47,533 nucleotides of DNA from IMG/VR virus record IMGVR_UViG_2574179724_000001; one strand, 5' to 3'. Below, piece by piece: positions 1-45,162 of this stretch (position 1 is the stretch's first letter; every line of letters begins with the position of its first letter). The DNA comes from a virus. The notes beneath the pieces are model-generated. The model did not search any database and was not told where the DNA came from. It saw only the letters and a list, made by a program, of their open reading frames with translations. Position numbers and translations under genes: made by a program.

Positions 1-95
1 TGACTTAATCTGTTGTCCTGTTGTTGTCCTCGATGCGGCTTTCTACCTATATTATAGGCATCTATAACCCCGATCACCGGTATTTTTATTAATAT
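1..95. repeat. Terminal direct repeat, left copy (attL candidate or circular-assembly overlap)
   Basis: Bases 1-95 are identical base for base to 47439-47533. The repeat runs into both window edges, so its true length is unknown. Confidence 0.9.
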
Positions 96-106
96 TTAGA
101 AGACGT

Positions 107-137
107 AAACGTTGATTTATCAGCGTTTATTTTTTTA
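107..137 (+). terminator. Hairpin plus T-run just outside the integrase 3' end
   Basis: AAACGTTGA (107-115) pairs with TCAGCGTTT (120-128), including one G-T wobble. ATTTTTTTA follows on the + strand. It would block inward antisense transcription into int. Confidence 0.4.
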
Positions 138-144
138 TAAATGG

Positions 145-1272
145 TTAAAAGCCGTTATAAAATATAACTTTGTTGTCTTGCTGTTGTCCTAAGTTGTCCA
201 TTAAATGTTCTATCTTATTGTCATTACGAGCTTTATACTCATCAATGAGATAGGCATATTTTTTTGCTGTAATCATCATATTTGAATGACCAAGACGTTT
301 GCTAATTGCATATAGATCAATACCTTTAAATAGCAAGTAAGCAACATGAGAGTGACGTAGTGAATGAAAATGAAAGCCTTCCTTTTTTATATTGCACTGT
401 TTAAATAGCTCTCTAAGTTTTTTATTAACAGCATTGGAACTAGGGACAGTGTTTTGATTGTTGCGAAATACATTGTCCATTCCATTTTTCTTCAGCTGTG
501 ATAAGCAGTTGAGTAAATCATTATTTACACTAATAGTTCTATTTGAACTTGTTGTCTTTGTTGTCTTAGTCTTGTGACTGTGATAATCATAAGATTTATT
601 TATCGAAATTGTCTTGTGTTTAAAATCAATATCTTCCCAAGTTAAAGCCATTATTTCTCCTAGGCGCATTCCTGTATAGATGGCAGTTAGAATCATATAG
701 CGGCTAGTGTATCTCGTATCCAGCTTATATTTAGCTGCATTTATTAGCATATTTATTTCTTTAACATTTAGATATTCAACCTTCATAGAATTCTGCTGAT
801 TAAACTTAAGCTCAGTCCTTTGAGTGAAATCTTTTGTAATAATATCATCTAAAATTGCATTTTTTGCACAAGCACGAACATAACCATTTATTTTTGCAAT
901 TGTTTCTTTAGCATGATTAGCTCCATACCAATTCAAAAAAGATTGATAATCTTCACGGGTTATTTTTTGAATCCTTTTAATTCCAAAGTATTTTTTTATA
1001 ATTTTGCTGGTAAGCACATAATGCCGAAGCGTAGATTCTGTTACTTTGTTTTCCTTATACGTTTTATACCAATAATCAAAATATTTTGAAAGTTCAATAT
1101 CCTTTTTAGCGGAAATAACGCCTGACTTTTTTGCTTCAATTTTAGCAGCATATAACCGCGCTTCCGATTTGGTTAAGAAACCACTTTTTGATGTTTGTTG
1201 CAATTTTCCATTATTATCACGTTGTGAAATTGTAACTTTCCAACCAGACTTAAGTTTCCTAAAACTTGCCAT
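145..1272 (-). CDS. int: Tyrosine recombinase / phage integrase
   Basis: 375 aa. The C-terminal region has HSLRHSH...LGHSNMMITAKKYAY (R-H-R-Y catalytic pattern). The N-terminus is an arm-binding AP2-like domain. AAGGAGG RBS. Confidence 0.95.
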   Translation of the reverse strand: MASFRKLKSGWKVTISQRDNNGKLQQTSKSGFLTKSEARLYAAKIEAKKSGVISAKKDIELSKYFDYWYKTYKENKVTESTLRHYVLTSKIIKKYFGIKRIQKITREDYQSFLNWYGANHAKETIAKINGYVRACAKNAILDDIITKDFTQRTELKFNQQNSMKVEYLNVKEINMLINAAKYKLDTRYTSRYMILTAIYTGMRLGEIMALTWEDIDFKHKTISINKSYDYHSHKTKTTKTTSSNRTISVNNDLLNCLSQLKKNGMDNVFRNNQNTVPSSNAVNKKLRELFKQCNIKKEGFHFHSLRHSHVAYLLFKGIDLYAISKRLGHSNMMITAKKYAYLIDEYKARNDNKIEHLMDNLGQQQDNKVIFYNGF

Positions 1273-1377
1273 TGTAAAAGCCTCCTTCTTAATTTAATAT
1301 ATAAATAGGGTGTAAAAGCCCTTAGTTATTTATTTGACGGGCACATCTCAAACTTTGGCGAGTGGGGATGTGTTTTT

Positions 1378-1917
1378 TTACAACTTGATCTTGAATTTTT
1401 TACCACACTTCATACATACGGCATCGTATTTTTTTCCGCGTTTACCAGCAAATCCTGCAATTGTTCCAATTCCACCATATAAAACGCCACCAACAGCCGC
1501 CTTTCCTAGAGAAAAAGCTTTTCTTCGATTATCTAGTATTTGGATGTTATGTGACTTGCATTTCGGACACTTCGGAGCGTGACGAGAGTATTTTTCTTTT
1601 GGCTGTTCTATATTATTAATAATTGGTTGAGACTGCAGTTTTGGTTTTGAAACCGAATTGTTCTTTGTGTTATCCGGCAAATTGTGAACAAATTCTTCAG
1701 CATCTTTATACTTAGCATTTTCTTTGTCTCTTTTATCAGCACGTCCTTTAAATTGTGGCTGTGTGCCTTGAAATAGCCAAACACCTATAAACGCAATAAT
1801 TCCTATATGCCACCAATGAAGAAATAAAATGTTAATTATTCCAACAACAATACCAACCATTAAGCCACTAGCAAATCCGCCAGCAGGATCTCCCTTCCAA
1901 AACTTTTTATCTTCCAT
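1378..1917 (-). CDS. Membrane protein with a split C-terminal zinc ribbon (unknown function, lysogeny-module cargo)
   Basis: 179 aa. Two N-terminal hydrophobic helices. CPKC...CMKC pairs flank a Gly-rich hydrophobic stretch (AAVGGVLYGGIGTIAGFAG). AAGGAG RBS. Same strand as int and cI. Confidence 0.7.
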   Translation of the reverse strand: MEDKKFWKGDPAGGFASGLMVGIVVGIINILFLHWWHIGIIAFIGVWLFQGTQPQFKGRADKRDKENAKYKDAEEFVHNLPDNTKNNSVSKPKLQSQPIINNIEQPKEKYSRHAPKCPKCKSHNIQILDNRRKAFSLGKAAVGGVLYGGIGTIAGFAGKRGKKYDAVCMKCGKKFKIKL

Positions 1918-1936
1918 TTTATTTTGCTCCTTTTCC

Positions 1937-3007
1937 TTAAATTATTTCAATTTGTTTATATTTATATGGAACGTATTCATATTGAAAAACAGCCTTTTTG
2001 ATTATTTCATACAGCCCATAATTGTTAATTAGTGAGACATTTGTTTTTAAAGCTAATGTTATTGCAGAATCAGTAAAAGTGCTGTTAGTAATAACAACTG
2101 CTCTATCTAGACCATAATATTGTGTTCCGGCGATTGCCTGTTGAACTGCACTATTGCCAACAGGTGTGGAATATAATTTGCATTGGATTCCGTATTTTAA
2201 ATTATTTTTTTCAGCAATGACATCAAGTCCTTGATCGTTAGAATCTTGCGTTCTTTTTATATTACTGTATCCAGCAAAACTTAACAGGCGTGCTATGTAG
2301 TATTCAAATTCTAATCCATTCATTTCTTTGATGCTAGATAGATCCATATCGATAAAAATTTGTTCAAGGTTGCTAATGTGTCTTTCCTTGTTATTGATTT
2401 CTTTATTAAGAGAATCGATAGTGTTTCTCATTTCAATTTGTTCAAGCCTGTATTTTTCCTTTGACAAACAGATATTGTTGTTTAATTCTTTTAATTCAGA
2501 TTTCTTTAAAATGATTTTTTCATCTAATTTGTGGGCCTTCTCTCTATCCAAATTTACATCTTCTAGCACTTCTTTGTTTTGCCTTTTAATTTCACTGAGA
2601 GTTTTGTTCTTATCCATAATAAGCAAGTCTTTTTTTAGAACTACGGATCTATATTTAAGAACTATCAGCAATTCAGAAATCAGAATATGTTTTTCATGCT
2701 TTTCAGCTATTCCGGTTAATATGTCCGCTCTTTTGTTTTGCTTAGAAATTAGTTCTTTCATATTATTCTTTAGACGAGATGAAAAAACTCTTAATCTAAT
2801 TTTATCATAATATTTTTGTGAGGTTTCAGTTATACGGAAGCCCAATTGTTTTAAACAAAAAATTAGACCAGTGAAAAAAATTATTAAGAAGAAAAGTGGA
2901 TAAGGTTCTTTAGGCTTAGCTATATATAGTATAAAAGAAAATATCAGTAATATTGAAAAAACAACTGTAAGAACCCAGAAAAAAAGTTTCTTTAATATTT
3001 TCTTCAT
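1937..3007 (-). CDS. Membrane-anchored coiled-coil protein with a C-terminal Mrr-like (PD-(D/E)xK) restriction endonuclease domain
   Basis: Two N-terminal TM helices and a K/E/L-rich heptad region of about 150 aa. The C-terminal FEYYIARLL...GLDVIAEK...GIQCKLY...VVITNSTFT fits the Mrr_cat pattern. The ORF opens at GTG 3016, but ATG 3007 has a GAGGAA RBS. Confidence 0.75.
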   Translation of the reverse strand: MKKILKKLFFWVLTVVFSILLIFSFILYIAKPKEPYPLFFLIIFFTGLIFCLKQLGFRITETSQKYYDKIRLRVFSSRLKNNMKELISKQNKRADILTGIAEKHEKHILISELLIVLKYRSVVLKKDLLIMDKNKTLSEIKRQNKEVLEDVNLDREKAHKLDEKIILKKSELKELNNNICLSKEKYRLEQIEMRNTIDSLNKEINNKERHISNLEQIFIDMDLSSIKEMNGLEFEYYIARLLSFAGYSNIKRTQDSNDQGLDVIAEKNNLKYGIQCKLYSTPVGNSAVQQAIAGTQYYGLDRAVVITNSTFTDSAITLALKTNVSLINNYGLYEIIKKAVFQYEYVPYKYKQIEII

Positions 3008-3028
3008 AGCAATCACTTCCTCATATAT

Positions 3029-3063
3029 AAAAATATCCGAGTTTGATATATAATTAACTCGGA
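3029..3063 (-). terminator. Rho-independent terminator downstream of the repressor gene
   Basis: TCCGAGTT (3036-3043) pairs with AACTCGGA (3056-3063), an 8-bp stem. On the minus strand it is followed by TATTTTTAT. Confidence 0.5.
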
Positions 3064-3122
3064 CACATCATAAACCTTAGCTTATCGACCTCCACTCGCT
3101 CAAGCTGAGGCTTATTTTTTTG

Positions 3123-3752
3123 CTATAAATCAGTAACCACTCTAAACGCTTTTCCTAATATTCTAACTGGGTTATCTTTGCCAACAATAATTGGTGTGAA
3201 CTCTGGATTATCCGGCATTAAGAACATCGTCCCATTTGACCGCTTAATTCTCTTTAGCGTGGCTTCATTTGTTTCAGTCATCAGAACAGCTGCTATCTCA
3301 TCATCTTCTACATCTGGCTGTTGACGGATTAGAACTTTTGACCCGCTTGGGATAGTAGGTTTCATTGAATCACCTTTAGCCTTTAAGTAGAAGCATTTTC
3401 CGCTGGGTAGATAATTAACCGGTTCATCTATATATTCTTCAATATTTTCCTCAGCTAAAATTGGATCACCACAAGCAATTTCGCCTAGCAGTGGGATCTT
3501 AACCGTTTTAGTAATTGGTATGACATTATCAGGTTTTCTCTCAATTAAATCAGATTTTTCAACGTTAAAATAATCTGCCATTTTTTCAATACTACCAATC
3601 CTTGGATAGGAATTTCCGTTTATCCAATCAGTTAAGGTTGTATATTTAACGTTTAAATCAGCAGCCATTTTTGATCTCTCGGTTCCGTGCTGTTTCATAA
3701 ACCTTTTAATATTATCAGATAGAACCCTTTTATTTCCTAAATCGCTCATCAT
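3123..3752 (-). CDS. cI-type repressor (XRE HTH plus S24 LexA-like autopeptidase)
   Basis: N-terminal HTH (MAADLNVKYTTLTDWINGNSYP). C-terminal GDSM...K Ser-Lys dyad (KGDSMKPTI, LKRIK). The ORF opens at GTG 3758, but the ATG at 3752 follows the GAGGTG RBS. Confidence 0.9.
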   Translation of the reverse strand: MMSDLGNKRVLSDNIKRFMKQHGTERSKMAADLNVKYTTLTDWINGNSYPRIGSIEKMADYFNVEKSDLIERKPDNVIPITKTVKIPLLGEIACGDPILAEENIEEYIDEPVNYLPSGKCFYLKAKGDSMKPTIPSGSKVLIRQQPDVEDDEIAAVLMTETNEATLKRIKRSNGTMFLMPDNPEFTPIIVGKDNPVRILGKAFRVVTDL

Positions 3753-3774
3753 TTTCACCTCACTTTCTACATAT

Positions 3775-3802
3775 ATTATACGGCTGTTCCGTAAAAAGTA
3801 AA
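3775..3802 (-). promoter_or_regulatory. Leftward maintenance-type promoter for the repressor, with an operator in the spacer
   Basis: On the minus strand: TTTACT, 16 nt, TATAAT. The palindrome TACGGCTGTTCCGTA (3779-3793) sits in the spacer. Confidence 0.5.
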
Positions 3803-3844
3803 TAGAAAATCAACAAAAAAATATGTTTTTTTCGTATTTTGTTA

Positions 3845-3873
3845 TTGACTTTACGATTTAATCGTATTAATAT
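3845..3873 (+). promoter_or_regulatory. Rightward early promoter with an operator in the spacer
   Basis: TTGACT (3845-3850), 17 nt, TAATAT (3868-3873). The palindrome TACGATTTAATCGTA (3852-3866) fills the spacer. Confidence 0.65.
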
Positions 3874-3902
3874 TGAAAATGCAAAGAGGAGGTGGAAAAC
3901 AA

Positions 3903-4145
3903 ATGGAAATTCAAAAACATTTCAAAGTAACTTTAAGAGGCCTACGTGCAACTTATGGGCTAAGCCAAAAAGAAGCGGCTGAAGCTATTGGTGTGGGGCT
4001 TGAAACGTGGAGAAACTATGAACGTGGGATCACTTCACCTGATGAAAAGAAGCTCAGAGTGATTGAAAAAGTATTCAATATAAGTTACGACGATATTATT
4101 TTTTGTCGTCAATTACGATTAAATCGTAGCAAAGTCACAGAATAG
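3903..4145 (+). CDS. Cro-like XRE-family HTH regulator
   Basis: LRATYGLSQKEAAEAIGVGLETWRNYERG HTH. GAGGAGG RBS lies 9 nt before ATG 3903 (the ORF track opens at TTG 3873). Divergent from cI. Confidence 0.85.
   Translation: MEIQKHFKVTLRGLRATYGLSQKEAAEAIGVGLETWRNYERGITSPDEKKLRVIEKVFNISYDDIIFCRQLRLNRSKVTE
4114..4128. promoter_or_regulatory. Third operator-type palindrome, inside the cro 3' end
   Basis: TACGATTAAATCGTA has the same TACG-N7-CGTA architecture as 3779-3793 and 3852-3866. Confidence 0.45.
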
Positions 4146-4157
4146 GAGGAACAAAAT

Positions 4158-4784
4158 ATGAAAACAGAAGTTTGGAATGGGCATCAAATAAGATTCATTG
4201 AATTGAACAATGAATGGTTTGCTATCGGCAAAGATGTTACTGACGCTTTGGAATATATCAATAGCAGAGATGCAATCAAAGCACATGTTGATGAAGAAGA
4301 TAAGAATACCGTAGCGATTCACGACGGTATTAAAGGAAATCCAAATAGAGTAGTAATTTCTGAGTTTGGAATTTATGATTTGATTTTTAATTCAAAAATG
4401 CCACAAGCAAAACAATTTAAACGCTGGGTCTTCAACGTAATCAAAACATTGCGTACTCAATCAGGACTAGAGGGCTTTGAGATTTTCCGAACACTTGATA
4501 AGGATCATCAACGAAAAATGATGAATCAACTTAATCAATCATTATCACATCCAGTGCGACTAAATTTTATGAAAGCAAACACGATTACAAATAAAGCAGT
4601 ATCAACTAAGTTTGGCTTTAAGAAAATGATTAAAAAGGGTGAAATGACACCACAGATGCTAGCTGAACGTGAGCATGTTTTAGAGGATGTAGTAAATTTG
4701 ATGGCTTTACGAGATAAGTACGGATTGAATATTTCAATCAGTCAGACAATTTACAACTCGGATAAGCAACTAGTTACGGAATAA
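4158..4784 (+). CDS. Phage antirepressor (BRO-N domain family)
   Basis: N-terminal WNGHQIRF...EWFAIGKDVTDALEY...AIKAHVDEEDK...VISEFGIYDLIFNSKMPQAKQFKRWV matches the Bro-N pattern. AGGAGG RBS. Confidence 0.8.
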   Translation: MKTEVWNGHQIRFIELNNEWFAIGKDVTDALEYINSRDAIKAHVDEEDKNTVAIHDGIKGNPNRVVISEFGIYDLIFNSKMPQAKQFKRWVFNVIKTLRTQSGLEGFEIFRTLDKDHQRKMMNQLNQSLSHPVRLNFMKANTITNKAVSTKFGFKKMIKKGEMTPQMLAEREHVLEDVVNLMALRDKYGLNISISQTIYNSDKQLVTE

Positions 4785-4799
4785 GGAAGAGTGATACAA

Positions 4800-4928
4800 A
4801 TGGAAAAGTTGGATAAAGCAATCAGTGATTTTATAGTCGACGTTTTGTCTGAAAAAGAAACAAAAACAAGCCCTGAAATGGTGGCAGCCATTGCAGAACT
4901 TGTAGAAAGTGTTAACAAATATGGTTAG
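4800..4928 (+). CDS. Small hypothetical protein (42 aa)
   Basis: ATG preceded by an AAGGAAGAG RBS. MEKLDKAISDFIVDVLSEKETKTSPEMVAAIAELVESVNKYG. Below the ORF-track length cutoff. Confidence 0.45.
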   Translation: MEKLDKAISDFIVDVLSEKETKTSPEMVAAIAELVESVNKYG

Positions 4929-5094
4929 AACTTCTTTCGAATTGTTTGTTGTGACTTTGTTAGTAGTTGGGAATTTTTATTTAGCATTCTCTTTTACAAA
5001 AATGTTTAGCAGAGATAAAGATATTAGTTATTATCTTTTAATGTCAACTTTAGCCATTTTTATAATTGGAACATTAATAGAGTTCTTCTACTAA
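4921..5094 (+). CDS. Small two-helix membrane protein (hypothetical)
   Basis: The 57-aa ORF is mostly hydrophobic (two predicted TM helices). The start is uncertain (GTG 4909 or ATG 4921). Confidence 0.3.
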   Translation: MVRTSFELFVVTLLVVGNFYLAFSFTKMFSRDKDISYYLLMSTLAIFIIGTLIEFFY

Positions 5095-5612
5095 ACGTGT
5101 CTCATAACAAATCCTTGCTTCTGAATCCTATCTAAATAGTTGTAATTTGAAAGCTTTTCGAGATAACCGTTCGCATGACGAAACCAACTAATATTTTGCG
5201 AATCGGTAAATAAAATAGCGGGTAAGTAATGATCGTTCCCCATAGCATGACTATCTATAAGATGAAACGTTTTTTTGCCGGGTGGAAATGTTTCTTGGAA
5301 TTTACCAAGATTGCCATCTGAATTTAACTTTTCAATTAATGAATCGATATCTGATTTATCGATGTTGCGGCACATAAAGACAAACAAATTGTATATTGGA
5401 GAATCATTTCCATTTCTCACTATTATTTTTTCTTCGTGGTCTTCAAAATCTTCCCAGGCTGAGACTCTTGAAGCTTGTGTTCTTTCAATGCGTTCATTTG
5501 TGTCTTTGTCAATTTTATTTTGATGCTTAATTGAATAGACCAGAGTTATGAAGGCTACTAAAGATGGTAAAGCGGGTAACCAATATTTTACAAAATAAGT
5601 TATTTTAATCAC
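5091..5612 (-). CDS. Single-pass membrane protein, unknown function (leftward cargo in the early region)
   Basis: 173 aa. N-terminal TM helix (WLPALPSLVAFITLVYSI) then a soluble domain. GAAGGAGG precedes GTG. The strand is opposite to the flanking early genes. Confidence 0.65.
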   Translation of the reverse strand: MIKITYFVKYWLPALPSLVAFITLVYSIKHQNKIDKDTNERIERTQASRVSAWEDFEDHEEKIIVRNGNDSPIYNLFVFMCRNIDKSDIDSLIEKLNSDGNLGKFQETFPPGKKTFHLIDSHAMGNDHYLPAILFTDSQNISWFRHANGYLEKLSNYNYLDRIQKQGFVMRHV

Positions 5613-5679
5613 CTCCTTCGAGATGATTATATCAAATATTTGCAGTAGGTGAGGGATTAAATAGAAAGGGGGGAATTAA

Positions 5680-5817
5680 ATGAAATTAACTATTGAAGGC
5701 AATACAGAGGAAATTAAAAACGTGCTCCAAGCTATTGGTGGTAGCAAGGAGCACAAAAAAATATTTAAACCCTCAGATAATAAAAAAAGTCAAAGAAACA
5801 TTCCTAACCCTTATTAG
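5680..5817 (+). CDS. Small hypothetical protein (45 aa)
   Basis: AAAGGGGGGA RBS then ATG. MKLTIEGNTEEIKNVLQAIGGSKEHKKIFKPSDNKKSQRNIPNPY. Its stop abuts the stop of the convergent gene at 5818. Confidence 0.4.
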   Translation: MKLTIEGNTEEIKNVLQAIGGSKEHKKIFKPSDNKKSQRNIPNPY

Positions 5818-6096
5818 TTAAGAAAAGATGTTTTCTCGAATAAACTTCCATTGATCATCTGTGGCTAATCCTTGGTAATTTTTAACTAATTCGCAGACAA
5901 ACAAACAATCATTTTTATCAAGTGCTTGTTCCAATTTAGTACACATATCTTCTGGGGACAGACTATTTCTTACCAGCCAAACAGATCCTTGAATTTTGAT
6001 ATATGCGCCACCAAAAGATTTAATGATTTTTTCAACCTGATCGTATTTTTGACCAGGATTGTCTAAATCATAAGAAATAATATAAGGCTTATCCAT
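5818..6096 (-). CDS. VapD/Cas2-like ferredoxin-fold small protein (tentative)
   Basis: YIISYDLD...KIIKSFGG.YIKIQGSVWLV...C-terminal DDQWKFIRENI recalls the Cas2/VapD pattern (beta1 YDL-D, QGS-aromatic, W..F). The GAGGTG RBS favours ATG 6096 over GTG 6105. Confidence 0.45.
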   Translation of the reverse strand: MDKPYIISYDLDNPGQKYDQVEKIIKSFGGAYIKIQGSVWLVRNSLSPEDMCTKLEQALDKNDCLFVCELVKNYQGLATDDQWKFIRENIFS

Positions 6097-6165
6097 GTGT
6101 TTCACCTCGATTATGTTGGATTAATTAAATTATATACCAAAAATTTTATGAAAGGGGATGTAAAT

Positions 6166-6486
6166 ATGCCCACATTGATAAATGAAAATGCAATTGCCGA
6201 ACTTGTAGAACAGCAAGTCAACAAACTTACTGATGAGCGACTACTAACTAGGCTTGATGGCATAACGTGGTCAACTGACCAATTCCGCAAAGCTTGCTGT
6301 GGTGGCAAAGACAGCGGCTGGGTTACGACTTTCATTTTAGACAAGTTTCTTGATGAGATTGATTACTACCACGGTGGCTGGCTGATTCGTGGTGGACGAG
6401 GAAAGGCAAATATTATTTTCGCCAAGCCTGCTTGCGAGTGGATGGAGAAAAATCGTAACCGAATTGATTGGGAGGCGAAAATATGA
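6166..6486 (+). CDS. DUF771-like phage protein (possible excisionase-type DNA-binding protein)
   Basis: AAAGGGGA RBS before ATG 6166. The WSTDQFRKACCG...TFILDKFLDEIDYYHGGWLIRGG...IFAKPACEWMEKN pattern resembles DUF771 of lactic-acid-bacterial phages. Confidence 0.5.
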   Translation: MPTLINENAIAELVEQQVNKLTDERLLTRLDGITWSTDQFRKACCGGKDSGWVTTFILDKFLDEIDYYHGGWLIRGGRGKANIIFAKPACEWMEKNRNRIDWEAKI

Positions 6487-6563
6487 CGTTTGCAGACTGG
6501 TTTGTAACGCTGATTATCGTCTATTTCATCGGCTGTTATGTGGGGAGGCATGAGCGAAAATGA

Positions 6564-6779
6564 TTGGGTTTCTATGGTTTCACACACTATTTTTTCCCAG
6601 CGATTGTTTTTATAGGCGGCTTAATCGTTAGTTTGTGGTTGGTCGGAAAGGTGGCAGATGCAATTGAACGTATTGGGTCAAGAATTGCTAGGTGTTGGCT
6701 GATTAAAAAAATAGAAGCCTACGGCAATGGGCTTCATTACAAATATTTCTTACAAAAATTATACCACAGAAAGGATTAA
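6564..6779 (+). CDS. Small membrane protein (hypothetical)
   Basis: 71-aa ORF with one TM helix (FFPAIVFIGGLIVSLWLVG). TTG start. A 26-aa hydrophobic ORF (6483-6563) precedes it. Confidence 0.3.
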   Translation: MGFYGFTHYFFPAIVFIGGLIVSLWLVGKVADAIERIGSRIARCWLIKKIEAYGNGLHYKYFLQKLYHRKD

Positions 6780-6783
6780 AAGC

Positions 6784-6945
6784 ATGAAAAAACAAATTAC
6801 AGTAGGAACGGTTTTAAGAATGAAAACAACTGAAGAGTTAAAAACATTGAACACTATATTGGCTTTAGAAGCAGCAAGCCTTAAAGATCATCATCACTTA
6901 GAACAATTTGCTAAAAATGTAAGCTTTTTAGAAGAAGGTGAGTGA
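6784..6945 (+). CDS. Small hypothetical protein (53 aa)
   Basis: ATG after an AGGA RBS. The stop overlaps the start of the next gene (GTGA). Confidence 0.45.
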   Translation: MKKQITVGTVLRMKTTEELKTLNTILALEAASLKDHHHLEQFAKNVSFLEEGE

Positions 6946-8249
6946 AATTGTCAGTCAAAATTAATAAATTAGAAATCGAAAATGTTAAACGCGTTAAGGC
7001 AGTCAAAATTGAGCCTAGCCAAAATGGATTAACTATCGTAGGCGGAAATAATAACCAAGGGAAGTCAAGCGTACTTGATGCAATTGCTTGGGCATTGGGT
7101 GGAAATAAGTACAAACCGTCAAAGGCAGAACGCGAAGGGTCAGCAATCCCACCTAGATTACACATTGTGATGAATAACGGCTTAATCGTTGAACGTACTG
7201 GTAAGAATTCAAGCTTAAAAGTAATTGATCCGAATGGTGAAAAGGGTGGCCAACAATTACTAAACGATTTTGTTGAAGAGTTAGCTATCAACTTGCCAAA
7301 GTTTATGGAGTCAACGAATAAAGAAAAAGCAAAAATATTGCTGCGAATAATCGGTGTTGGTGACCAGTTGTATCAACTAGAACAGAAAGAACAGGAAATC
7401 TATAATCAACGCCACACTATTGGACAGATAGCTGACCAAAAAGGTAAGTACGCTAAAGAACAGCCTTATTTTCCAGACGCGCCAAAGCAGTTAGTTGATG
7501 TTAGCGAGTTAATCAAGCAGCAACAAACAATTTTGGCTAAGAATGGTGAAAATGCTCGAAAACGCCAGCAGGTTAAAGAAATTCAAGGACAATTTGAACT
7601 TGAAAATCAGCAAATTAAACAGCTTCAGGAACAACTAGCACAGCTACAAGCCAAACATGCTAAGACAGAAGCAGATTTACAAGTAGCTCAAAAAGATACA
7701 TCAATTCTGCATGATGAATCGACAGCAGAACTTGAAGCAAACTTATCTCATATTGACGAAATCAACCGCAAAGTTCGGGCTAATCTCGATAAAGATAAAG
7801 CCGAAGATGATGCAAAACAGTACGCTAATCAGTACGACAAACTAACCGAACAAATTAATCAAGTTAGAAAAGATAAAGCTGCATTGTTAAATAACGCAAA
7901 GCTACCTTTACCGGGGTTGTCCGTTGAAGATGGGGAACTAACTTACAACGGTCAAAAATGGGACAACATGAGCGGTTCGGACCAGCTAAAAGTGTCAACT
8001 GCGATTGTTCGTCAGCTGAAACCAGATTGCGGATTCATACTCTTAGATAAATTAGAACAGATGGACATGGTTACATTAACAGAATTTGGAAAGTGGCTTG
8101 AACAGGAAGGCCTTCAAGCAATTGCTACAAGAGTTTCGACTGGCAGAGAGTGTTCAATAATTATTGATGATGGTTATGTTAAAAGGCAAGAACAAACAAT
8201 TAAGCAGCCTAAACCAGAATCATCATGGGCTGGGAAAGGAGCATTTTAA
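6942..8249 (+). CDS. SMC/Rad50-like AAA ATPase (AAA_23 type) of the recombination/replication module
   Basis: N-terminal Walker A GGNNNQGKSSVLDAI, a long Q/E/K coiled coil, and a C-terminal ILLDKLEQMD Walker B-like motif. Confidence 0.75.
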   Translation: MKLSVKINKLEIENVKRVKAVKIEPSQNGLTIVGGNNNQGKSSVLDAIAWALGGNKYKPSKAEREGSAIPPRLHIVMNNGLIVERTGKNSSLKVIDPNGEKGGQQLLNDFVEELAINLPKFMESTNKEKAKILLRIIGVGDQLYQLEQKEQEIYNQRHTIGQIADQKGKYAKEQPYFPDAPKQLVDVSELIKQQQTILAKNGENARKRQQVKEIQGQFELENQQIKQLQEQLAQLQAKHAKTEADLQVAQKDTSILHDESTAELEANLSHIDEINRKVRANLDKDKAEDDAKQYANQYDKLTEQINQVRKDKAALLNNAKLPLPGLSVEDGELTYNGQKWDNMSGSDQLKVSTAIVRQLKPDCGFILLDKLEQMDMVTLTEFGKWLEQEGLQAIATRVSTGRECSIIIDDGYVKRQEQTIKQPKPESSWAGKGAF

Positions 8250-9308
8250 ATGAATATCACGAGTGGAATTGTACCCAAACCTCAAAAGTGTGTTTTGTAC
8301 GGAGTGGAAGGCATTGGTAAAACGACATTTGCCAGTCAATTCCCAGATCCATTATTTATAGACACAGAAGACTCAACTCTGTATCTGAATGTTAAACGTT
8401 TCGACAAACCCACCAGCTGGGAAATGCTGCTACAGCAAGTTGAATATGTTAAAACAAATCGTCCGTGTAAGACATTAGTAATCGATACGATGGATTGGGC
8501 CGAAGAATTATGCAAACAACATTTGATGCAAAAAAACGGTTGGAACGCAATTGACGCAACTGGATATGGAGCTAGATATGTTGCATTAGCCGGAGAAATT
8601 GGGGGTTTGCTTAATAAGCTGAGTGAAGTAATTGAAGTTGGAATCAATGTTGTAATCACTGCACATGCTTGGCTGCGAAAAAAAGAAGAACCTGACGAAA
8701 TGGGTGCTTATGATCGATACGAATTAAAGCTCGAAAAGAAAACAGCGCCACTCGTTAAGGAGTGGGCTGACATGGTATTGTTTGCTAATTACAAAACACT
8801 GATTATTACTGATGAAAAGACAAGCAGTAAAAAAGCACAGGGAGGTCAACGTGTAATGTATACAACACACCGACCAACATGGGATGCAAAAAATCGTTTA
8901 GGTCTACCAGATGAATTACCTTTTGATTATTCACAAATTGCGCAGGCATTTATGAAAGCAACTACTCCAGCCACATCAATCAGTGAGCCGGTTAAACCAG
9001 CAATTTCACAAGCTAAAGCTGCTGATCAAGAAGTAGGGCCAGTTCCACCAGAACAACTGGATCCAATTCCACAACCAGATCCAGCACCAGAATTTGCAGA
9101 AGATATTCCTGATGTAATTCCGCAAAGTGTTGCTGACTTGATGAAGATTAATCATGTGACTGTTAATGAAATTACTCAAACTATCTACAAAGGCGGATTC
9201 ATGCCAGCAGACACACCACTAAAAAATATTCCTGACGATTTGTGGAATTACTTAGCAACTAATTGGAATAACACTCTAGGATTTATCCAAAACACATTAA
9301 GAAAATAA
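8250..9308 (+). CDS. RecA-fold ATPase, AAA_24 / Sak4-like recombination protein
   Basis: VLYGVEGIGKTTFASQFPDPLFIDTE Walker A context, typical of AAA_24. Pro-rich linker and a C-terminal extension. Confidence 0.7.
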   Translation: MNITSGIVPKPQKCVLYGVEGIGKTTFASQFPDPLFIDTEDSTLYLNVKRFDKPTSWEMLLQQVEYVKTNRPCKTLVIDTMDWAEELCKQHLMQKNGWNAIDATGYGARYVALAGEIGGLLNKLSEVIEVGINVVITAHAWLRKKEEPDEMGAYDRYELKLEKKTAPLVKEWADMVLFANYKTLIITDEKTSSKKAQGGQRVMYTTHRPTWDAKNRLGLPDELPFDYSQIAQAFMKATTPATSISEPVKPAISQAKAADQEVGPVPPEQLDPIPQPDPAPEFAEDIPDVIPQSVADLMKINHVTVNEITQTIYKGGFMPADTPLKNIPDDLWNYLATNWNNTLGFIQNTLRK

Positions 9309-17819: not shown

Positions 17820-18029
17820 CTAAACATCCTCTTTTTGCATTTTTAAATCATCATAGAATTTTTGAAGTTTCAAAGCTGTCTTAATGGTCATATTTTCGAG
17901 TTTAGTATCGCCAGTCCTGTAGCGATTAATCATAGCACGAGTTAACCCCGTTTCCTCCGCTATAGCGTATGCCGAGATATCCGAACTTAACAGCTTTTCA
18001 ATTTTGCTTAAATCAATTTTCTTTTCCAT
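17820..18029 (-). CDS. Small HTH protein
   Basis: 69 aa. AIAEETGLTRAMINRYRTG helix-turn-helix. Overlaps the upstream gene by 17 nt. Leftward strand. Confidence 0.65.
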   Translation of the reverse strand: MEKKIDLSKIEKLLSSDISAYAIAEETGLTRAMINRYRTGDTKLENMTIKTALKLQKFYDDLKMQKEDV

Positions 18030-18894
18030 TGTTTAGCGGATCGCCCTTCCATTTTTCAAGTGTATTTCCCCATAATTCTTCTTGAAGTCTATCACGAGCT
18101 TCAATGGCATCGCTTAACTTTGCGTATTTTCCACCATAGTTTATTTTTTTCTTAAAGGCGACTAGCACTAAATATCTGCCATCATTTTGCACGTAGATAT
18201 TTCGATAACCAGAAGTATTTGCTTTTGTAGGGTTATTTCCCAACATAGCAGGGCTTGTTCCACCATATTTTGTATTTATTTTTCTAATTTTTGCTTGGCC
18301 TTGTTTAACATTATTTTTAGCTTTTTTCATTTTCAAATGGCCACAAGATTTTAGATTGCCTCCTTTTAAAGCTGATGCTGTTGCGTAGTATATTTTGCCA
18401 CAGGAACACTGTGTTTTATACAGTTTGCTCCCGTTGCATGTTATCCCTGTATATCTAATAACTGTTAATTCATTGAACTTCTCTCCAGGTTTTATTTCTC
18501 GACTTATATGCTCATACTGCCATTTATCCGTGGTGCCTTCAATAATGGCTTTGGCTAAACTCTCTTTAGCCTTGATTGCTTCTTCTAAAGTAGAGTATGC
18601 TCCACCAGCAAAATGTTTTCCATTTTCTGAAAGCCTAACGTAAAATTTATTAGAATTTTTATTAAATGAAATTCCTCTGACTCCAGTTAAAGAATTGCTT
18701 TGAGCCTTACGACTACCGGGCCTGACAGGAATAATTGGGTGGGCTTTAATCATTTCTTCAAGGCATTTTTCAGCTTCTACTCTGGTTTTGAAGCCTCTTT
18801 TTGAAATGGTTTTTCCCATAATTTTCAGTCTTGCGCCGTACGAAAATTCACCAGTAGCTAGTTTAAATTCTTGTATGCTTCCTCTTTTCTTCAT
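18013..18894 (-). CDS. Multi-AP2-domain DNA-binding protein with a central Cys4-type zinc ribbon
   Basis: Three AP2/arm-like units: GFKTRVEAEKCLEEM, GVRGISFNKNSNKFYVRL...YSTLEEAIKAKE and SGYRNIYVQNDGRYLVLV...KLSDAIEARDRL. Also LTVI...CSCGKIYYATASALKGGNLKSCGH. No HNH motif. Confidence 0.65.
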   Translation of the reverse strand: MKKRGSIQEFKLATGEFSYGARLKIMGKTISKRGFKTRVEAEKCLEEMIKAHPIIPVRPGSRKAQSNSLTGVRGISFNKNSNKFYVRLSENGKHFAGGAYSTLEEAIKAKESLAKAIIEGTTDKWQYEHISREIKPGEKFNELTVIRYTGITCNGSKLYKTQCSCGKIYYATASALKGGNLKSCGHLKMKKAKNNVKQGQAKIRKINTKYGGTSPAMLGNNPTKANTSGYRNIYVQNDGRYLVLVAFKKKINYGGKYAKLSDAIEARDRLQEELWGNTLEKWKGDPLNNGKEN

Positions 18895-18906
18895 AATTAA
18901 TTTTCC

Positions 18907-19320
18907 TTAGAGAAGGCCTTCTGAAATTTCAGCGCCATCTGCTAATTCTTCTTGATATTCTTCTTCTGAAAGTGAAATTAATTCGACAAAGATAAACCCT
19001 TTGCCTTCTTGGTCCTCAGGCTCTGCCCAATCAATTTTGAAGTGAGTACCTTTTTTTACAATATATTCATCTTCACCTTTGATAGCGTCTAACTTATCGA
19101 CTTCCTCTTTGTTAGAGTAGTCGACTTTGTGAGCTTCAACAGCGTTCATAATCGAGAAAACTACTTGACCGCCCAGATTGTTTTCAGGGCGAAATGCTTC
19201 TTCATTTTCGCCACCTGCGAAACTTGCGTCATGATCAAGAGTCATCAGCTGACCCTCTTGATAGTCTGAATAATATTCGGGCTGCAACGCTATGATTCTT
19301 GCTAAGTTTTCGTATTTCAT
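18907..19320 (-). CDS. Highly acidic small protein, unknown function
   Basis: 137 aa with 33 D/E versus 11 K/R by hand count. AGGAGG RBS. First gene of the leftward island. Confidence 0.65.
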   Translation of the reverse strand: MKYENLARIIALQPEYYSDYQEGQLMTLDHDASFAGGENEEAFRPENNLGGQVVFSIMNAVEAHKVDYSNKEEVDKLDAIKGEDEYIVKKGTHFKIDWAEPEDQEGKGFIFVELISLSEEEYQEELADGAEISEGLL

Positions 19321-43929: not shown

Positions 43930-45162
43930 TTGAAAAAGAAAGTCTTACTTGGAGTGCTGGCGTTTGCCAGTGCTTTTTGTTTTGTAGTCAGTGTAAGTGC
44001 TGACCGTGATCAAGGCGTGGATTTGTCAAAGTATCAAGGCTCAACGGCTGTATTTGGCCAAGCTAGTGACAAGTTTGCCATCTGCCAGATCGGTGGCTAC
44101 TATGATGGTATATTTTACCCACAATCAACTTATCAATCACAAGTAGCGTCAACGATTGCGCAAGGCAAACGGGCACATACTTACATTTTTAGTGAGTTCA
44201 GTACCCGAGCACAAGCGGATCAGATGCTAGATTACTACTTGCCAAAAGTGCAGACACCTAAAAATTCGATTGTTGCTTTAGATGTAGAATCTGGTACGCC
44301 TAACACTGATGCTGTTATGTATGCCTTAGTTAAAGTCAAGCAAGCTGGATATACTCCAGTTTTATACGGTTATCTTAATTTCTTAAAAGCACATTTAGAT
44401 TTATCTACGATTGCAGACAGTTATCCTCTGTGGTTAGCAGAATATCCAGACTATCAGGTACGCACTACGCCAGACTATAATTATTTTCCGAGCTATAAAA
44501 ATATTCATATGTTTCAGTTTACCAGCACATACAAAGCTGGTGGATTGGACGGAAATGTGGACTTGCTAGGAATTACTAAAAACGGCTATAATGGAACAAC
44601 TACCAATAGTGTGGGAGCCACAACCGTTAAGACTACAACTACCACGGCTGCAATCAAGCAAGGCCAGACAGCTAATGCTACATCTAAAAGTGATATTGCT
44701 GTCGGGTACACGGTTAAGGTTAATTTTTCTGCATCTAAATGGTCAAATGATTCAAATATTCCAAGCTGGGTAAAAGGTAAGAGTTATAAAGCTCAGCAAG
44801 TTTCAGGTAGTAAAGTTTTACTTGCTGGCATTTTAAGCTGGATTGATAAATCTAATGTTGAGATTTTACAAACGGCTAGGCAAGCAACTTCAACCAGCAC
44901 TAGCTCATCTAGTTTGCCAAGTGGAGTACACGCGCAAAGCGGTACTTTCACACCTAACCAGAGTCTGATGGTATGGCATGGTGCAGGGTATAATGCAACA
45001 TATCAATATTACTATCGTGGTGAAAGCATCAAGTACGTTGGGTATATCGACAACTGGAATGCAGGGTACAGATATATCGTGTACAAGGGTGCATCTGGCA
45101 TCTGGTGCTACGTTGCCGACAGACATTTAAGCCCTAATTACATGCTAGGATATGCTAAATAA
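43930..45162 (+). CDS. Endolysin: Sec signal peptide, GH25 muramidase, two SH3b-like wall-binding repeats
   Basis: MKKKVLLGVLAFASAFCFVVSVSA signal-like N-terminus. The GVDLSKYQG start of the GH25 domain. Thr-rich linker. C-terminal SH3-like repeats. TTG start after AAGGGGG. Confidence 0.85.
   Translation: MKKKVLLGVLAFASAFCFVVSVSADRDQGVDLSKYQGSTAVFGQASDKFAICQIGGYYDGIFYPQSTYQSQVASTIAQGKRAHTYIFSEFSTRAQADQMLDYYLPKVQTPKNSIVALDVESGTPNTDAVMYALVKVKQAGYTPVLYGYLNFLKAHLDLSTIADSYPLWLAEYPDYQVRTTPDYNYFPSYKNIHMFQFTSTYKAGGLDGNVDLLGITKNGYNGTTTNSVGATTVKTTTTTAAIKQGQTANATSKSDIAVGYTVKVNFSASKWSNDSNIPSWVKGKSYKAQQVSGSKVLLAGILSWIDKSNVEILQTARQATSTSTSSSSLPSGVHAQSGTFTPNQSLMVWHGAGYNATYQYYYRGESIKYVGYIDNWNAGYRYIVYKGASGIWCYVADRHLSPNYMLGYAK

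What the first reader, a model, noticed from the sequence alone, without database searches (positions are those of the whole stretch)
1937..3007. Membrane-anchored, coiled-coil Mrr-type nuclease between integrase and repressor
Seen: the protein has two N-terminal hydrophobic helices and a heptad-rich K/E/L/N segment of about 150 residues. Its C-terminal domain reads FEYYIARLLSFAGY...DQGLDVIAEK...YGIQCKLY...VVITNSTFTDSA. This fits the Mrr_cat PD-(D/E)xK arrangement (D ... (E/Q)xK followed by the T.s.FT strand). The gene is co-oriented with int and cI, AT-rich, and preceded by a terminator hairpin (3029-63). Established: the int-cI interval of lactic-acid-bacterial prophages is the classical location of superinfection-exclusion and Abi genes expressed from the lysogen. 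Inference: this is a nuclease tethered to the membrane through a long coiled-coil stalk. It may act at the DNA-entry site or as an Abi effector. This architecture is not one of the named defence systems I know.
Basis: partly seen in the sequence, partly recalled or inferred. Interest (0 to 1): 0.65.

Follow-up and report, generated by a model that had tools for sequence, protein, structure and literature searches.

The report
Membrane-tethered Mrr nuclease, prophage defence candidate
A prophage of a lactic acid bacterium carries, just after its repressor gene, a DNA-cutting enzyme anchored to the inner face of the cell membrane by a long helical stalk; it is most likely an untested anti-phage defence gene resembling the recently described Epona and Shield systems.

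Summary
Window 1937-3007 (-) encodes a 356-aa protein. It has an N-in/C-in hairpin of two transmembrane helices and a roughly 170-residue all-helical, K/E/L/I/N-rich linker. Heptad periodicity is significant only near residues 189-224. The C-terminal Mrr_cat PD-(D/E)xK domain (Pfam E=3e-25, AF2 pLDDT >95) keeps an intact E235/D258/D262/Q275-x-K277 site.

The gene has the lowest GC of any 1-kb stretch in the window. It lies between the S24 repressor and the integrase, co-oriented with both.

Architecture-matched relatives lie directly downstream of unrelated repressors in four other prophages. Other relatives sit in defence islands. In IMG/VR contigs, integrases and repressors are the commonest neighbours of this clade.

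The wider clade has 16,509 clusters and about 65% of the 194 sequences examined carry a membrane anchor. It also includes chromosomal genes with housekeeping neighbours.

The N-terminal 226 residues have no detectable homologue. The neighbouring 179-aa zinc-ribbon gene is a common, independent next-to-integrase gene.

Epona (Mrr_cat plus 2 TM) is a validated system, and Shield ShdA and a TM/DUF4041/nuclease protein are close analogues.

Verdict: a plausible, untested new variant of a known kind. Interest is moderate.

The parts
1937..3007 (-). Complete gene, 356 aa plus stop: TM hairpin, helical stalk and Mrr_cat nuclease
   Evidence: ORF list and sequence. The identical 356-aa product is called on three public contigs and a 99% identical one on an IMG/VR viral contig.
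3016..3022 (-). Shine-Dalgarno-like GAGGAAG, 8 nt upstream of ATG 3007
   Evidence: Read directly from the sequence.
2918..2983 (-). TM helix 1 (residues 9-30)
   Evidence: Hydropathy 2.76. It is preceded by MKKILKK with +4 charge. AF2 predicts helix 2-30.
2843..2896 (-). TM helix 2 (residues 38-55)
   Evidence: Hydropathy 2.11. A 7-residue loop precedes it and a K/R-rich segment follows. AF2 predicts a helix starting at residue 37.
2327..2839 (-). Helical linker or stalk (residues 57-227). Heptad signal is clearest at about 189-224. Predicted hinges lie at 101-107 and 148-158.
   Evidence: AF2 helices 37-147 and 158-227, with low pLDDT at 101-107 and 148-158. Periodicity and shuffle tests. 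No homologue of residues 1-226 was found.
2003..2332 (-). Mrr_cat PD-(D/E)xK nuclease domain (residues 226-335)
   Evidence: Pfam E=3.2e-25. pLDDT 94-98. Foldseek matches to AF1548, MspJI, AspBHI and Avs4. Viral Mrr-like proteins match at E down to 5e-15.
2303..2305 (-). E235 codon (first-helix acidic residue of the PD-(D/E)xK site)
   Evidence: Invariant in 49 homologues.
2222..2236 (-). D258-Q-G-L-D262 motif
   Evidence: D258, G260 and D262 are invariant. The motif aligns to K-D-T-G-V-D of the LlaBIII Mrr-like nuclease domain.
2177..2185 (-). Q275-C-K277, the (E/Q)xK motif
   Evidence: Invariant. 192 of 193 relatives have QxK. The motif aligns to I-Q-A-K of LlaBIII.
3024..3066 (-). Terminator-like hairpin plus U-rich tail between the repressor and the nuclease gene
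   Evidence: dG -13.3 kcal/mol, z -3.57. The whole spacer scores z -3.68. The sequence is identical in three related prophages, so there is no covariation test.
3123..3758 (-). Context: cI-like repressor (HTH_26/HTH_3 + Peptidase_S24), directly upstream and co-oriented
   Evidence: Pfam.
1378..1917 (-). Context: 179-aa protein with two TM helices and a zinc ribbon that encloses a hydrophobic stretch. It starts 19 nt downstream and is probably co-transcribed. I judge it an independent cargo gene.
   Evidence: phrog_24502 'zinc-finger domain protein' E=8e-26 and six other PHROGs. 85 phage records match, for example Streptococcus phage O1205 ORF2 beside the integrase. Homologues also follow the nuclease gene in L004 and L007.
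145..1272 (-). Context: tyrosine integrase
   Evidence: Pfam Phage_integrase E=2e-27.

Best explanation
The gene is prophage cargo expressed from the lysogen, and it encodes a self-contained anti-phage (superinfection-defence) nuclease. An N-in/C-in hairpin of two transmembrane helices fixes the protein in the cytoplasmic membrane. A helical stalk of about 170 residues, part of it coiled coil, probably pairs two chains. It holds a catalytically competent Mrr-type PD-(D/E)xK domain in the cytoplasm just beneath the membrane. The protein has no DNA-reading domain and no ATPase partner, so discrimination would come from location or activation rather than sequence or modification. DNA entering through the membrane would be cut, while the nucleoid stays largely out of reach.

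Shown here: the domain identity, the conserved active site, the predicted topology, the all-helical linker, the genomic position and its recurrence.

Inferred: expression in the lysogen, dimerisation, DNase activity, the defence phenotype, and cleavage at the entry site as opposed to an abortive-infection outcome.
For: 1. The nuclease looks competent.
- Mrr_cat E=3.2e-25.
- E235, D258, D262, Q275 and K277 are invariant in 49 homologues, and QxK occurs in 192 of 193 relatives.
- The motif aligns with D-x-G-x-D...Q-A-K of the Mrr-like nuclease domain of the Type ISP enzyme LlaBIII.
- The fold matches AF1548, MspJI, AspBHI and the Avs4 nuclease.

2. Topology places the nuclease inside the cell. 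The N-terminus carries +4 charge, the loop is 7 residues, and a K/R-rich stretch follows TM2.

3. The position is typical of lysogen-expressed cargo.
- The gene lies between the S24 repressor and the integrase, co-oriented with both.
- It has the lowest GC of any equal-sized stretch in the window.

4. The same position recurs with unrelated repressors.
- L004: after HTH + ImmA/M78, in an interval that also holds two Abi_2 genes.
- L005: after HTH + M78.
- L006: after a Phage_CI_repr repressor, with RhuM and integrase downstream.
- L007: 7 nt after an S24 repressor, followed by a zinc-ribbon gene and integrase.
- Among 46 non-redundant IMG/VR loci, the commonest neighbour families are Phage_integrase (16), HTH_3 (14), Peptidase_S24 (8) and Peptidase_M78 (8).

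5. Relatives also sit in defence islands.
- Beside GmrSD, Eco57I and ResIII genes.
- Beside Lit-like Peptidase_U49, MazG-like, SLFN-type helicase, PLD-helicase and a methylase.

6. There are functional precedents.
- Epona: Mrr_cat plus 2 TM, validated as a defence system.
- Shield ShdA: membrane-bound, DNase in vitro, sufficient alone, and lowers transformation.
- A TM + DUF4041 coiled coil + DNA binding/cleavage protein.

7. The layout is recurrent. 34 of 193 relatives have an N-terminal TM anchor, a Pro/Gly-poor charged spacer of at least 100 residues, and Mrr_cat.
Against: - There are no functional data for this protein or for any close relative.
- PADLOC matches only the C-terminal 44% of the PDC-S02 profile. 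One PDC-S02 representative tested in E. coli B gave no protection against T4, T5 or T7.
- In species-representative genomes, the immediate neighbours of this Mrr_cat clade are mostly housekeeping genes: RibF 8, NlpC/P60+SH3 7, tRNA synthetases, and only 2 integrases. An alphaproteobacterial member sits next to the ribosomal-protein operon. Membrane-anchored Mrr_cat proteins are therefore not defence-specific.
- A terminator-like hairpin separates the gene from the repressor, and no convincing promoter of its own was found. Expression in the lysogen is not shown.
- Heptad regularity is weak over two thirds of the linker.
- Dimerisation and the geometry of the two long helices could not be examined.
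Confidence: 0.55

Rival explanations
1. The protein is an abortive-infection toxin rather than an entry-site nuclease. It is held inactive at the membrane. A membrane perturbation caused by infection (tape-measure or holin insertion, or depolarisation) releases or oligomerises it. It then degrades host and phage DNA alike and kills the infected cell.
For: - The membrane anchor could act as the sensor.
- Epona's TM part is described as holin-like.
- ShdA alters host nucleoid organisation and gives population-level immunity.
- In L004 the relative shares the int-repressor interval with two Abi_2 genes.
- The protein has no DNA-recognition domain.
Against: - Nothing in the sequence points to a trigger or a release mechanism.
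- There is no protease site and no partner gene.
- This reading shares every untested step of the main explanation.
Confidence: 0.2
2. The protein is not a phage-defence gene. It is a membrane-proximal DNA-processing or DNA-barrier enzyme whose chromosomal relatives serve a general cellular role, for example limiting plasmid or transforming DNA, or clearing DNA near the membrane or septum. A prophage has simply picked up a copy.
For: - Chromosomal members sit among housekeeping neighbours (ribF, NlpC/P60, the ribosomal operon).
- The clade is very large: 16,509 clusters at E<=1e-3.
- Some relatives are fused to FtsK_gamma or FtsK_SpoIIIE domains.
- ShdA lowers transformation efficiency.
Against: - The closest and architecture-matched relatives are in prophage lysogeny modules or defence islands.
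- The gene has atypically low GC, as cargo genes do.
- The counts for housekeeping neighbours are inflated by one related group of Lachnospiraceae genomes.
Confidence: 0.12
3. The nuclease works as a two-gene system with the downstream 179-aa membrane zinc-ribbon protein, which acts as its sensor, regulator or immunity partner.
For: - The two genes are 19 nt apart and co-oriented.
- A homologue with a nearly identical N-terminus follows the nuclease gene in L004, and a 70-aa zf-LITAF-like protein follows it in L007.
Against: - The zinc-ribbon family matches seven PHROG families and 85 phage records, typically beside the integrase. Only 7 phage records have any Mrr match.
- L005 and L006 have no such gene after the nuclease.
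- In L002 the nuclease is identical while the neighbour differs (189 aa).
- The co-occurrence is explained by both genes being cargo of the same interval.
Confidence: 0.08
4. The protein serves the phage's own lytic cycle (host DNA breakdown or a lysis-associated function), or it is a catalytically dead scaffold or sensor of the NA-iREase1 type.
For: - Pfam NA-iREase1 is also hit (33.8 bits, cutoff 27).
- The 2-TM hairpin resembles class II holins in outline.
Against: - The gene is on the lysogeny strand, next to the repressor and integrase and far from the lysis genes at 43-45 kb.
- The Mrr_cat score is far higher than the NA-iREase1 score, and all catalytic residues are invariant.
Confidence: 0.05

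Closest known systems
Epona (single-gene anti-phage system from a Vibrio cholerae chromosomal-integron cassette; Darracq et al., bioRxiv 10.1101/2024.07.02.601686)
   Same: It is described as an Mrr_cat domain fused to a domain with two transmembrane helices. It is a single gene carried on a mobile element and is experimentally protective in E. coli.
   Different: No long helical or coiled-coil spacer is reported for Epona. Its host and mobile element differ (gammaproteobacterial integron cassette against a Lactobacillaceae prophage).
Shield ShdA (Pseudomonas; PMC10270631)
   Same: It has an N-terminal membrane anchor and a cytoplasmic restriction-endonuclease-fold nuclease. It is found in the membrane fraction, acts as a non-specific DNase in vitro, is sufficient alone for defence, and lowers transformation.
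   Different: Its nuclease is an RmuC domain, not Mrr_cat. The window protein has no RmuC or ShdA hit in Pfam or PADLOC. Shield subtypes have accessory genes.
[quoted passage not shown] 2022, PMC9519451)
   Same: It has the same three-part plan of membrane anchor, central coiled coil and C-terminal nuclease-like domain, and it was validated as a single-protein defence.
   Different: Both its coiled-coil family (DUF4041) and its C-terminal domain differ. The window protein has no DUF4041 hit.
E. coli Mrr and the MspJI/AspBHI type IV restriction enzymes
   Same: They share the catalytic domain family and the D...QxK active-site variant, and the folds match.
   Different: Those enzymes are soluble and have an N-terminal domain that reads modified DNA. 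The window protein has a TM hairpin and a stalk instead, and it has no Mrr_N hit.
PADLOC candidate PDC-S02, and the ZorD and LmuA nuclease modules
   Same: The HMM hits fall on the Mrr-like part: ZorD C-terminus 6e-17, PDC-S02 2e-13, LmuA 3.5e-6.
   Different: Only the nuclease module matches. There is no SNF2 helicase, no ZorAB and no adjacent LmuB. PDC-S02 itself is unvalidated, and one representative was negative.
Superinfection-exclusion and Abi genes of lactic-acid-bacterial prophages (Sie2009, Ltp, AbiD/F-type Abi_2). The Sie2009 and Ltp comparison is from my own knowledge.
   Same: They occupy the same genomic niche between integrase and repressor and are expressed from the lysogen. A relative of the window protein shares this interval with two Abi_2 genes.
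   Different: The Sie proteins are small membrane proteins or lipoproteins with no enzymatic domain. The window protein has no sequence relationship to them.

Membership tests
Mrr_cat (PF04471), PD-(D/E)xK nuclease superfamily | Profile match above the curated threshold | tested here: met
   88.9 bits against a cutoff of 21, E=3.2e-25, model positions 1-114 of 115.
Mrr_cat (PF04471), PD-(D/E)xK nuclease superfamily | Catalytic residues: acidic residue on helix 1, D at the start of strand 2, (E/Q)xK on strand 3 | tested here: met
   E235, D262 and Q275-x-K277 are invariant in 49 homologues. They fall on AF2 helix 231-244 and strands 263-267 and 270-277. They align to the LlaBIII nuclease motif.
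Mrr_cat (PF04471), PD-(D/E)xK nuclease superfamily | Restriction-endonuclease alpha/beta fold | tested here: met
   The AF2 domain has pLDDT 94-98. Foldseek matches AF1548 at 7e-6, MspJI at 1e-5 and AspBHI at 2e-5.
Mrr_cat (PF04471), PD-(D/E)xK nuclease superfamily | Nuclease activity | not testable with these tools
   This needs biochemistry.
Type IV restriction enzyme of the E. coli Mrr type | N-terminal Mrr_N winged-helix domain that reads modified DNA | tested here: not met
   There is no Mrr_N hit even at E<=1. The N-terminal 226 residues are a TM hairpin plus helices.
Epona | A single polypeptide with a 2-TM domain and an Mrr_cat domain | tested here: met
   Two TM helices and Mrr_cat.
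Epona | Sequence homology to the Epona protein beyond the shared Pfam domain | not testable with these tools
   The Epona sequence or locus tag was not found in the held text or supplement.
Epona | Anti-phage activity | not testable with these tools
   This needs phage challenge experiments.
Shield (ShdA) | RmuC domain | tested here: not met
   There is no RmuC or ShdA match in Pfam at E<=1 or in PADLOC at E<=1.
Shield (ShdA) | N-terminal transmembrane anchor | tested here: met
.
PADLOC PDC-S02 (candidate family) | Full-length match to a PDC-S02 profile | tested here: inconclusive
   The best profile scores E=2.3e-13 but covers only positions 173-319 of 334, that is protein residues 204-352.
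Zorya (ZorD) | SNF2 helicase body and neighbouring zorABC genes | tested here: not met
   The hit is confined to ZorD profile positions 922-1067 of 1071. The neighbours are the repressor, the zinc-ribbon protein and the integrase.
Lamassu (LmuA/LmuB) | An adjacent SMC-like LmuB in the same operon | tested here: not met
   The LmuA hit is weak and partial (3.5e-6). The only SMC-like gene (6942-8249, + strand) is about 4 kb away in the divergent early operon, next to an AAA_24 gene.
NA-iREase1 (inactive restriction endonuclease) | Loss of catalytic residues | tested here: not met
   The catalytic residues are invariant. The NA-iREase1 score of 33.8 bits lies under the much stronger Mrr_cat hit.
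DUF4041 membrane-anchored coiled-coil nuclease (Vassallo 2022) | DUF4041 domain | tested here: not met
   No DUF4041 hit in Pfam at E<=1.

The most novel reading that the evidence does not exclude
Self and non-self are told apart purely by location. A non-specific nuclease sits on a semi-rigid dimeric stalk and patrols a shell beneath the membrane. It destroys any DNA that enters through the envelope (phage, plasmid or transforming DNA) without modification, guide or sensor. The thousands of uncharacterised membrane-anchored Mrr_cat proteins, including the chromosomal ones, would then be one large and overlooked class of 'entry-site restriction' enzymes, with stalk length tuned to the depth of the patrolled zone.
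Probability: 0.2. Interest if true: 0.7.

Novelty: new variant of a known kind. Interest (0 to 1): 0.45.

Why it matters
If the protein is active, it would add a Gram-positive, prophage-borne example to the small set of membrane-tethered nuclease defences (Epona, Shield). None of those yet has a worked-out way of telling self from non-self.

The clean three-part build (anchor, stalk, nuclease) suits simple experiments: untether the protein, shorten the stalk, or kill the active site. These would test whether location alone protects the host chromosome.

The result would also bear on starter-culture and probiotic Lactobacillaceae, where prophage-encoded phage resistance is of practical use.

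It would also draw attention to a very large and mostly unstudied clade. The clade has 16,509 clusters, and about two thirds of the 194 sequences examined carry a membrane anchor.

Tried and rejected
- Megablast of window 1-6000 against 50,697 phage records found nothing. tblastn found only 7 partial hits, all to the Mrr domain.
- NCBIfam has no family for either protein.
- A search with the N-terminal 226 residues alone against 5.8 billion proteins returned only the protein itself. The idea of a shared anchor-and-stalk module with swappable effectors could therefore not be supported.
- A sequence search of the PDB gave only AF1548, weakly. The profile search added the LlaBIII nuclease motif.
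- The Rfam scan of 1-6500 found nothing relevant, only a sub-threshold rli48 match at 5692-5791.
- The intergenic hairpins are identical in the three related prophages, so covariation could not be tested.
- The strict promoter/terminator scan found no terminator at the hairpin, because of its loop-size limit, and no convincing dedicated promoter.
- I tried to obtain the Epona sequence or locus tag from the preprint text and supplement, without success.
- I searched the held papers for the assembly accession CP049304 to name the host, and nothing was found. My recollection that these assemblies are Liquorilactobacillus nagelii is unverified.
- A Lamassu reading (LmuA-like hit plus the SMC-like gene at 6942-8249) was rejected on gene position and strand.
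- A two-gene system with the 179-aa protein was considered and judged unlikely.
- The antisense ORF at 2328-2810 (+) was treated as a by-product of the AT-rich coding strand and was not tested further.
Full report
**1. What is there**

The finding's coordinates match an ORF on the minus strand, 1937-3007. It starts at ATG 3007, which lies 8 nt after GAGGAAG, and encodes 356 aa. Gene callers on public assemblies report the identical 356-aa product on a 2.49-Mb NCBI chromosome (CP049304.1), on contig AZEV01000043.1 and on a Logan contig. An IMG/VR viral contig carries a 99% identical copy.

The window is a complete temperate phage genome. It reads integrase (145-1272), a 179-aa gene, this gene, an S24 repressor (3123-3758), a divergent cro/Bro-N early region, then replication, packaging, tail and lysis genes. 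Two of the public copies are 100% identical to the window from position 67 to 9007 and diverge beyond position 67. This places the left prophage boundary near there.

**2. Anatomy of the protein**

- *Membrane anchor.* Residues 9-30 and 38-55 are strongly hydrophobic. The N-terminus MKKILKK carries four lysines, the connecting loop is 7 residues, and the stretch after TM2 is K/R-rich. The positive-inside rule therefore gives an N-in/C-in hairpin with the remaining 300 residues in the cytoplasm.
- *Linker.* AlphaFold2 (49-sequence alignment, mean pLDDT 82) predicts TM2 running on into a helix to residue 147, a low-confidence break at 148-158, a second helix 158-227, and then a compact alpha/beta domain with pLDDT 94-98. 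The linker is rich in K, L, E, I and N and almost free of Gly and Pro.
- *Coiled coil.* A 3.5-residue hydrophobic periodicity is seen for residues 130-225 but not 60-130. A heptad-register score exceeds composition-matched shuffles only around residues 189-224. 'Coiled-coil stalk' is therefore reasonable for the membrane-distal part and unproven for the rest. I could not determine whether the two long helices are collinear or fold back on each other.
- *Nuclease domain.* The C-terminal domain is Pfam Mrr_cat (E=3.2e-25).
- *Active site.* E235, D258, G260, D262, Q275, K277 and N308 are invariant across 49 homologues. The QxK form occurs in 192 of 193 relatives.
- *Structural and motif matches.* A profile of the family aligns the D-x-G-x-D...Q-C-K stretch to K-D-T-G-V-D...I-Q-A-K in the Mrr-like nuclease domain of the lactococcal Type ISP enzyme LlaBIII. 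Foldseek matches AF1548, MspJI, AspBHI, the Avs4 nuclease, Can2 and Hjc.
- *Missing parts.* There is no Mrr_N or any other DNA-reading domain.

**3. Surroundings and expression signals**

The gene has 28.7% GC against 37.6% for the window. It is the lowest-GC stretch of its size in the window, as expected for acquired cargo.

The 115-nt spacer after the repressor folds into two hairpins (z -3.7). The second has an 11-bp stem with dG -13.3 kcal/mol and is followed by a U-rich tail. It may terminate or attenuate repressor transcripts. No convincing dedicated promoter was found. The spacer is identical in the related prophages, so there is no covariation evidence.

In relatives, the nuclease gene starts 5-41 nt after the repressor or ImmA gene. 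This argues for co-transcription with the lysogeny genes in those phages.

**4. Relatives and their contexts**

The family is very large at the level of the Mrr_cat domain. It has 16,509 representative clusters at E<=1e-3, but only 13 at E<=1e-30.

Of the 194 closest sequences, 126 have at least one predicted TM helix, and the helix is N-terminal in 98 of them. Thirty-four of the 193 that carry the motif share the plan of N-terminal anchor, charged Pro/Gly-poor spacer of at least 100 residues, and Mrr_cat. The spacers are not homologous to one another. Residues 1-226 of this protein find nothing but themselves in 5.8 billion proteins.

Contexts fall into two groups.

*Mobile or defence contexts:*
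- The Ligilactobacillus ubinensis homologue (32% identity over the full length) follows an HTH/ImmA pair and shares the interval before the integrase with two Abi_2 genes.
- Three metagenomic relatives directly follow their prophage repressors. These are an HTH + Peptidase_M78 pair, a Phage_CI_repr repressor and an S24 repressor. For the latter two an integrase lies downstream.
- One relative lies beside GmrSD, Eco57I and ResIII genes.
- Another lies in an island with Lit-like Peptidase_U49, MazG-like, SLFN-type helicase, PLD-helicase and methylase genes.
- In IMG/VR, 305 stretches encode relatives. Among 46 non-redundant loci, the commonest families within two genes are Phage_integrase (16), HTH_3 (14), Peptidase_S24 (8) and Peptidase_M78 (8).

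*Chromosomal contexts:*
- In species-representative genomes the immediate neighbours are mostly housekeeping: RibF 8, NlpC/P60+SH3 7, tRNA synthetases, and only 2 integrases.
- These counts come largely from short one-TM proteins in related Lachnospiraceae.
- An alphaproteobacterial member sits beside the ribosomal-protein operon.

It is partly met for the distant clade.

**5. The neighbouring 179-aa gene**

The protein has two TM helices and a C-terminal zinc ribbon (CPKC...CMKC) that encloses a hydrophobic stretch. It matches phrog_24502 and six other PHROG families.

It has 85 matches in phage records from Streptococcus, Leuconostoc, Lactobacillus, Enterococcus and Clostridium. These typically lie beside the integrase, for example O1205 ORF2, and those phages lack the nuclease.

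Homologues follow the nuclease gene in L004 and L007 but not in L005 or L006. I read it as a separate cargo gene of the same interval, not as a partner.

**6. Mechanism**

The best-supported reading is a lysogen-expressed, self-contained anti-phage nuclease tethered to the inner face of the membrane. The steps shown and the steps inferred are listed under the best explanation.

An entry-site action (cutting DNA as it enters) and an abortive-infection action (activation by membrane perturbation, then indiscriminate DNA degradation) cannot be separated from sequence alone. I favour the defence reading as a whole at about 0.55 for the entry-site version, plus 0.2 for the Abi variant.

**7. Comparison with known systems**

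- *Epona* is the closest in domain content. It is Mrr_cat plus 2 TM and is validated. I could not retrieve its sequence.
- *Shield ShdA* is the best mechanistic analogue. It is in the membrane fraction, is a DNase in vitro and is sufficient alone, but it uses an RmuC domain that is absent here.
- *Vassallo et al.* validated a protein with a membrane anchor, a DUF4041 coiled coil and a DNA binding/cleavage domain.
- *PADLOC* hits cover only the nuclease module of ZorD, PDC-S02 and LmuA. One PDC-S02 representative gave no protection in E. coli B.
- The protein is not an E. coli-type Mrr because it lacks Mrr_N. It is also not Zorya or Lamassu.

**8. Verdict**

I classify the gene as a new variant of a known kind: a membrane-tethered PD-(D/E)xK nuclease defence, here with an orphan anchor and stalk of about 170 residues, carried in a Lactobacillaceae prophage. 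Interest is moderate (0.45). The protein offers a clean experimental handle on how tethered nucleases spare the host chromosome.

Noticed in passing
window 46117-47265 (+): A 382-aa protein with DUF6575 (E=4e-17) lies after the GH25 lysin (43930-45162) at the right end of the prophage. DUF6575 is listed among the newly found defence domains in Vassallo et al. 2022. This is a likely second defence cargo gene.
   Followed up: partly
window 5818-6105 (-): A 95-aa ORF, reverse-oriented within the early region, has a weak Cas2-like match (PADLOC Cas2b 1.8e-6; Pfam CRISPR_Cas2 8e-4, below the cutoff). It is a stand-alone Cas2-like gene in a phage.
   Followed up: partly
window 1378-1917 (-); L004 9320-9949; L007 3774-3986: The 179-aa zinc-ribbon membrane protein is a very common next-to-integrase gene in Firmicutes temperate phages, and its function is unknown. 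Its first 85 or so residues are nearly identical between the window and the Ligilactobacillus ubinensis prophage, although the adjacent nuclease proteins share only 32% identity. This suggests recent module exchange.
   Followed up: partly
window 5091-5612 (-) and 18013-19320 (-): There are further reverse-oriented ORFs inside forward operons. One is a 173-aa protein with an N-terminal TM helix and no family match. The others are a 293-aa protein with weak AP2 and Arm-DNA-binding matches and a 137-aa orphan.
   Followed up: partly
window 6942-8249 (+): A 435-aa SMC_N/AAA_23 protein hits PADLOC LmuB (2.6e-11) and AriA. It sits in the early lytic operon next to an AAA_24 gene, so it is probably a recombination or replication protein and not Lamassu.
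   Followed up: partly
L045-L049, L056 and other Lachnospiraceae loci; L010/L011: Short one-TM Mrr_cat proteins (about 160-180 aa) appear among chromosomal neighbours in related Lachnospiraceae genomes. RibF and NlpC/P60-SH3 are the commonest neighbour families across the genome set. An alphaproteobacterial TM-Mrr_cat gene sits beside the ribosomal-protein operon. These membrane-anchored nucleases have no known role.
   Followed up: partly
P0005, P0012, P0013, P0019, P0023, P0024: Several close Mrr_cat relatives are fused to FtsK_gamma DNA-binding domains, and one to FtsK_SpoIIIE. This is a different way of bringing the same nuclease to DNA.
   Followed up: no
window 1-67 compared with L001 and L003: Two public genomes carry the prophage 100% identical from window position 67 to 9007, but their flank differs beyond position 67. 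The Logan contig matches through position 1 at 97.5% identity. The element therefore seems to occur in different flanking contexts.
   Followed up: no
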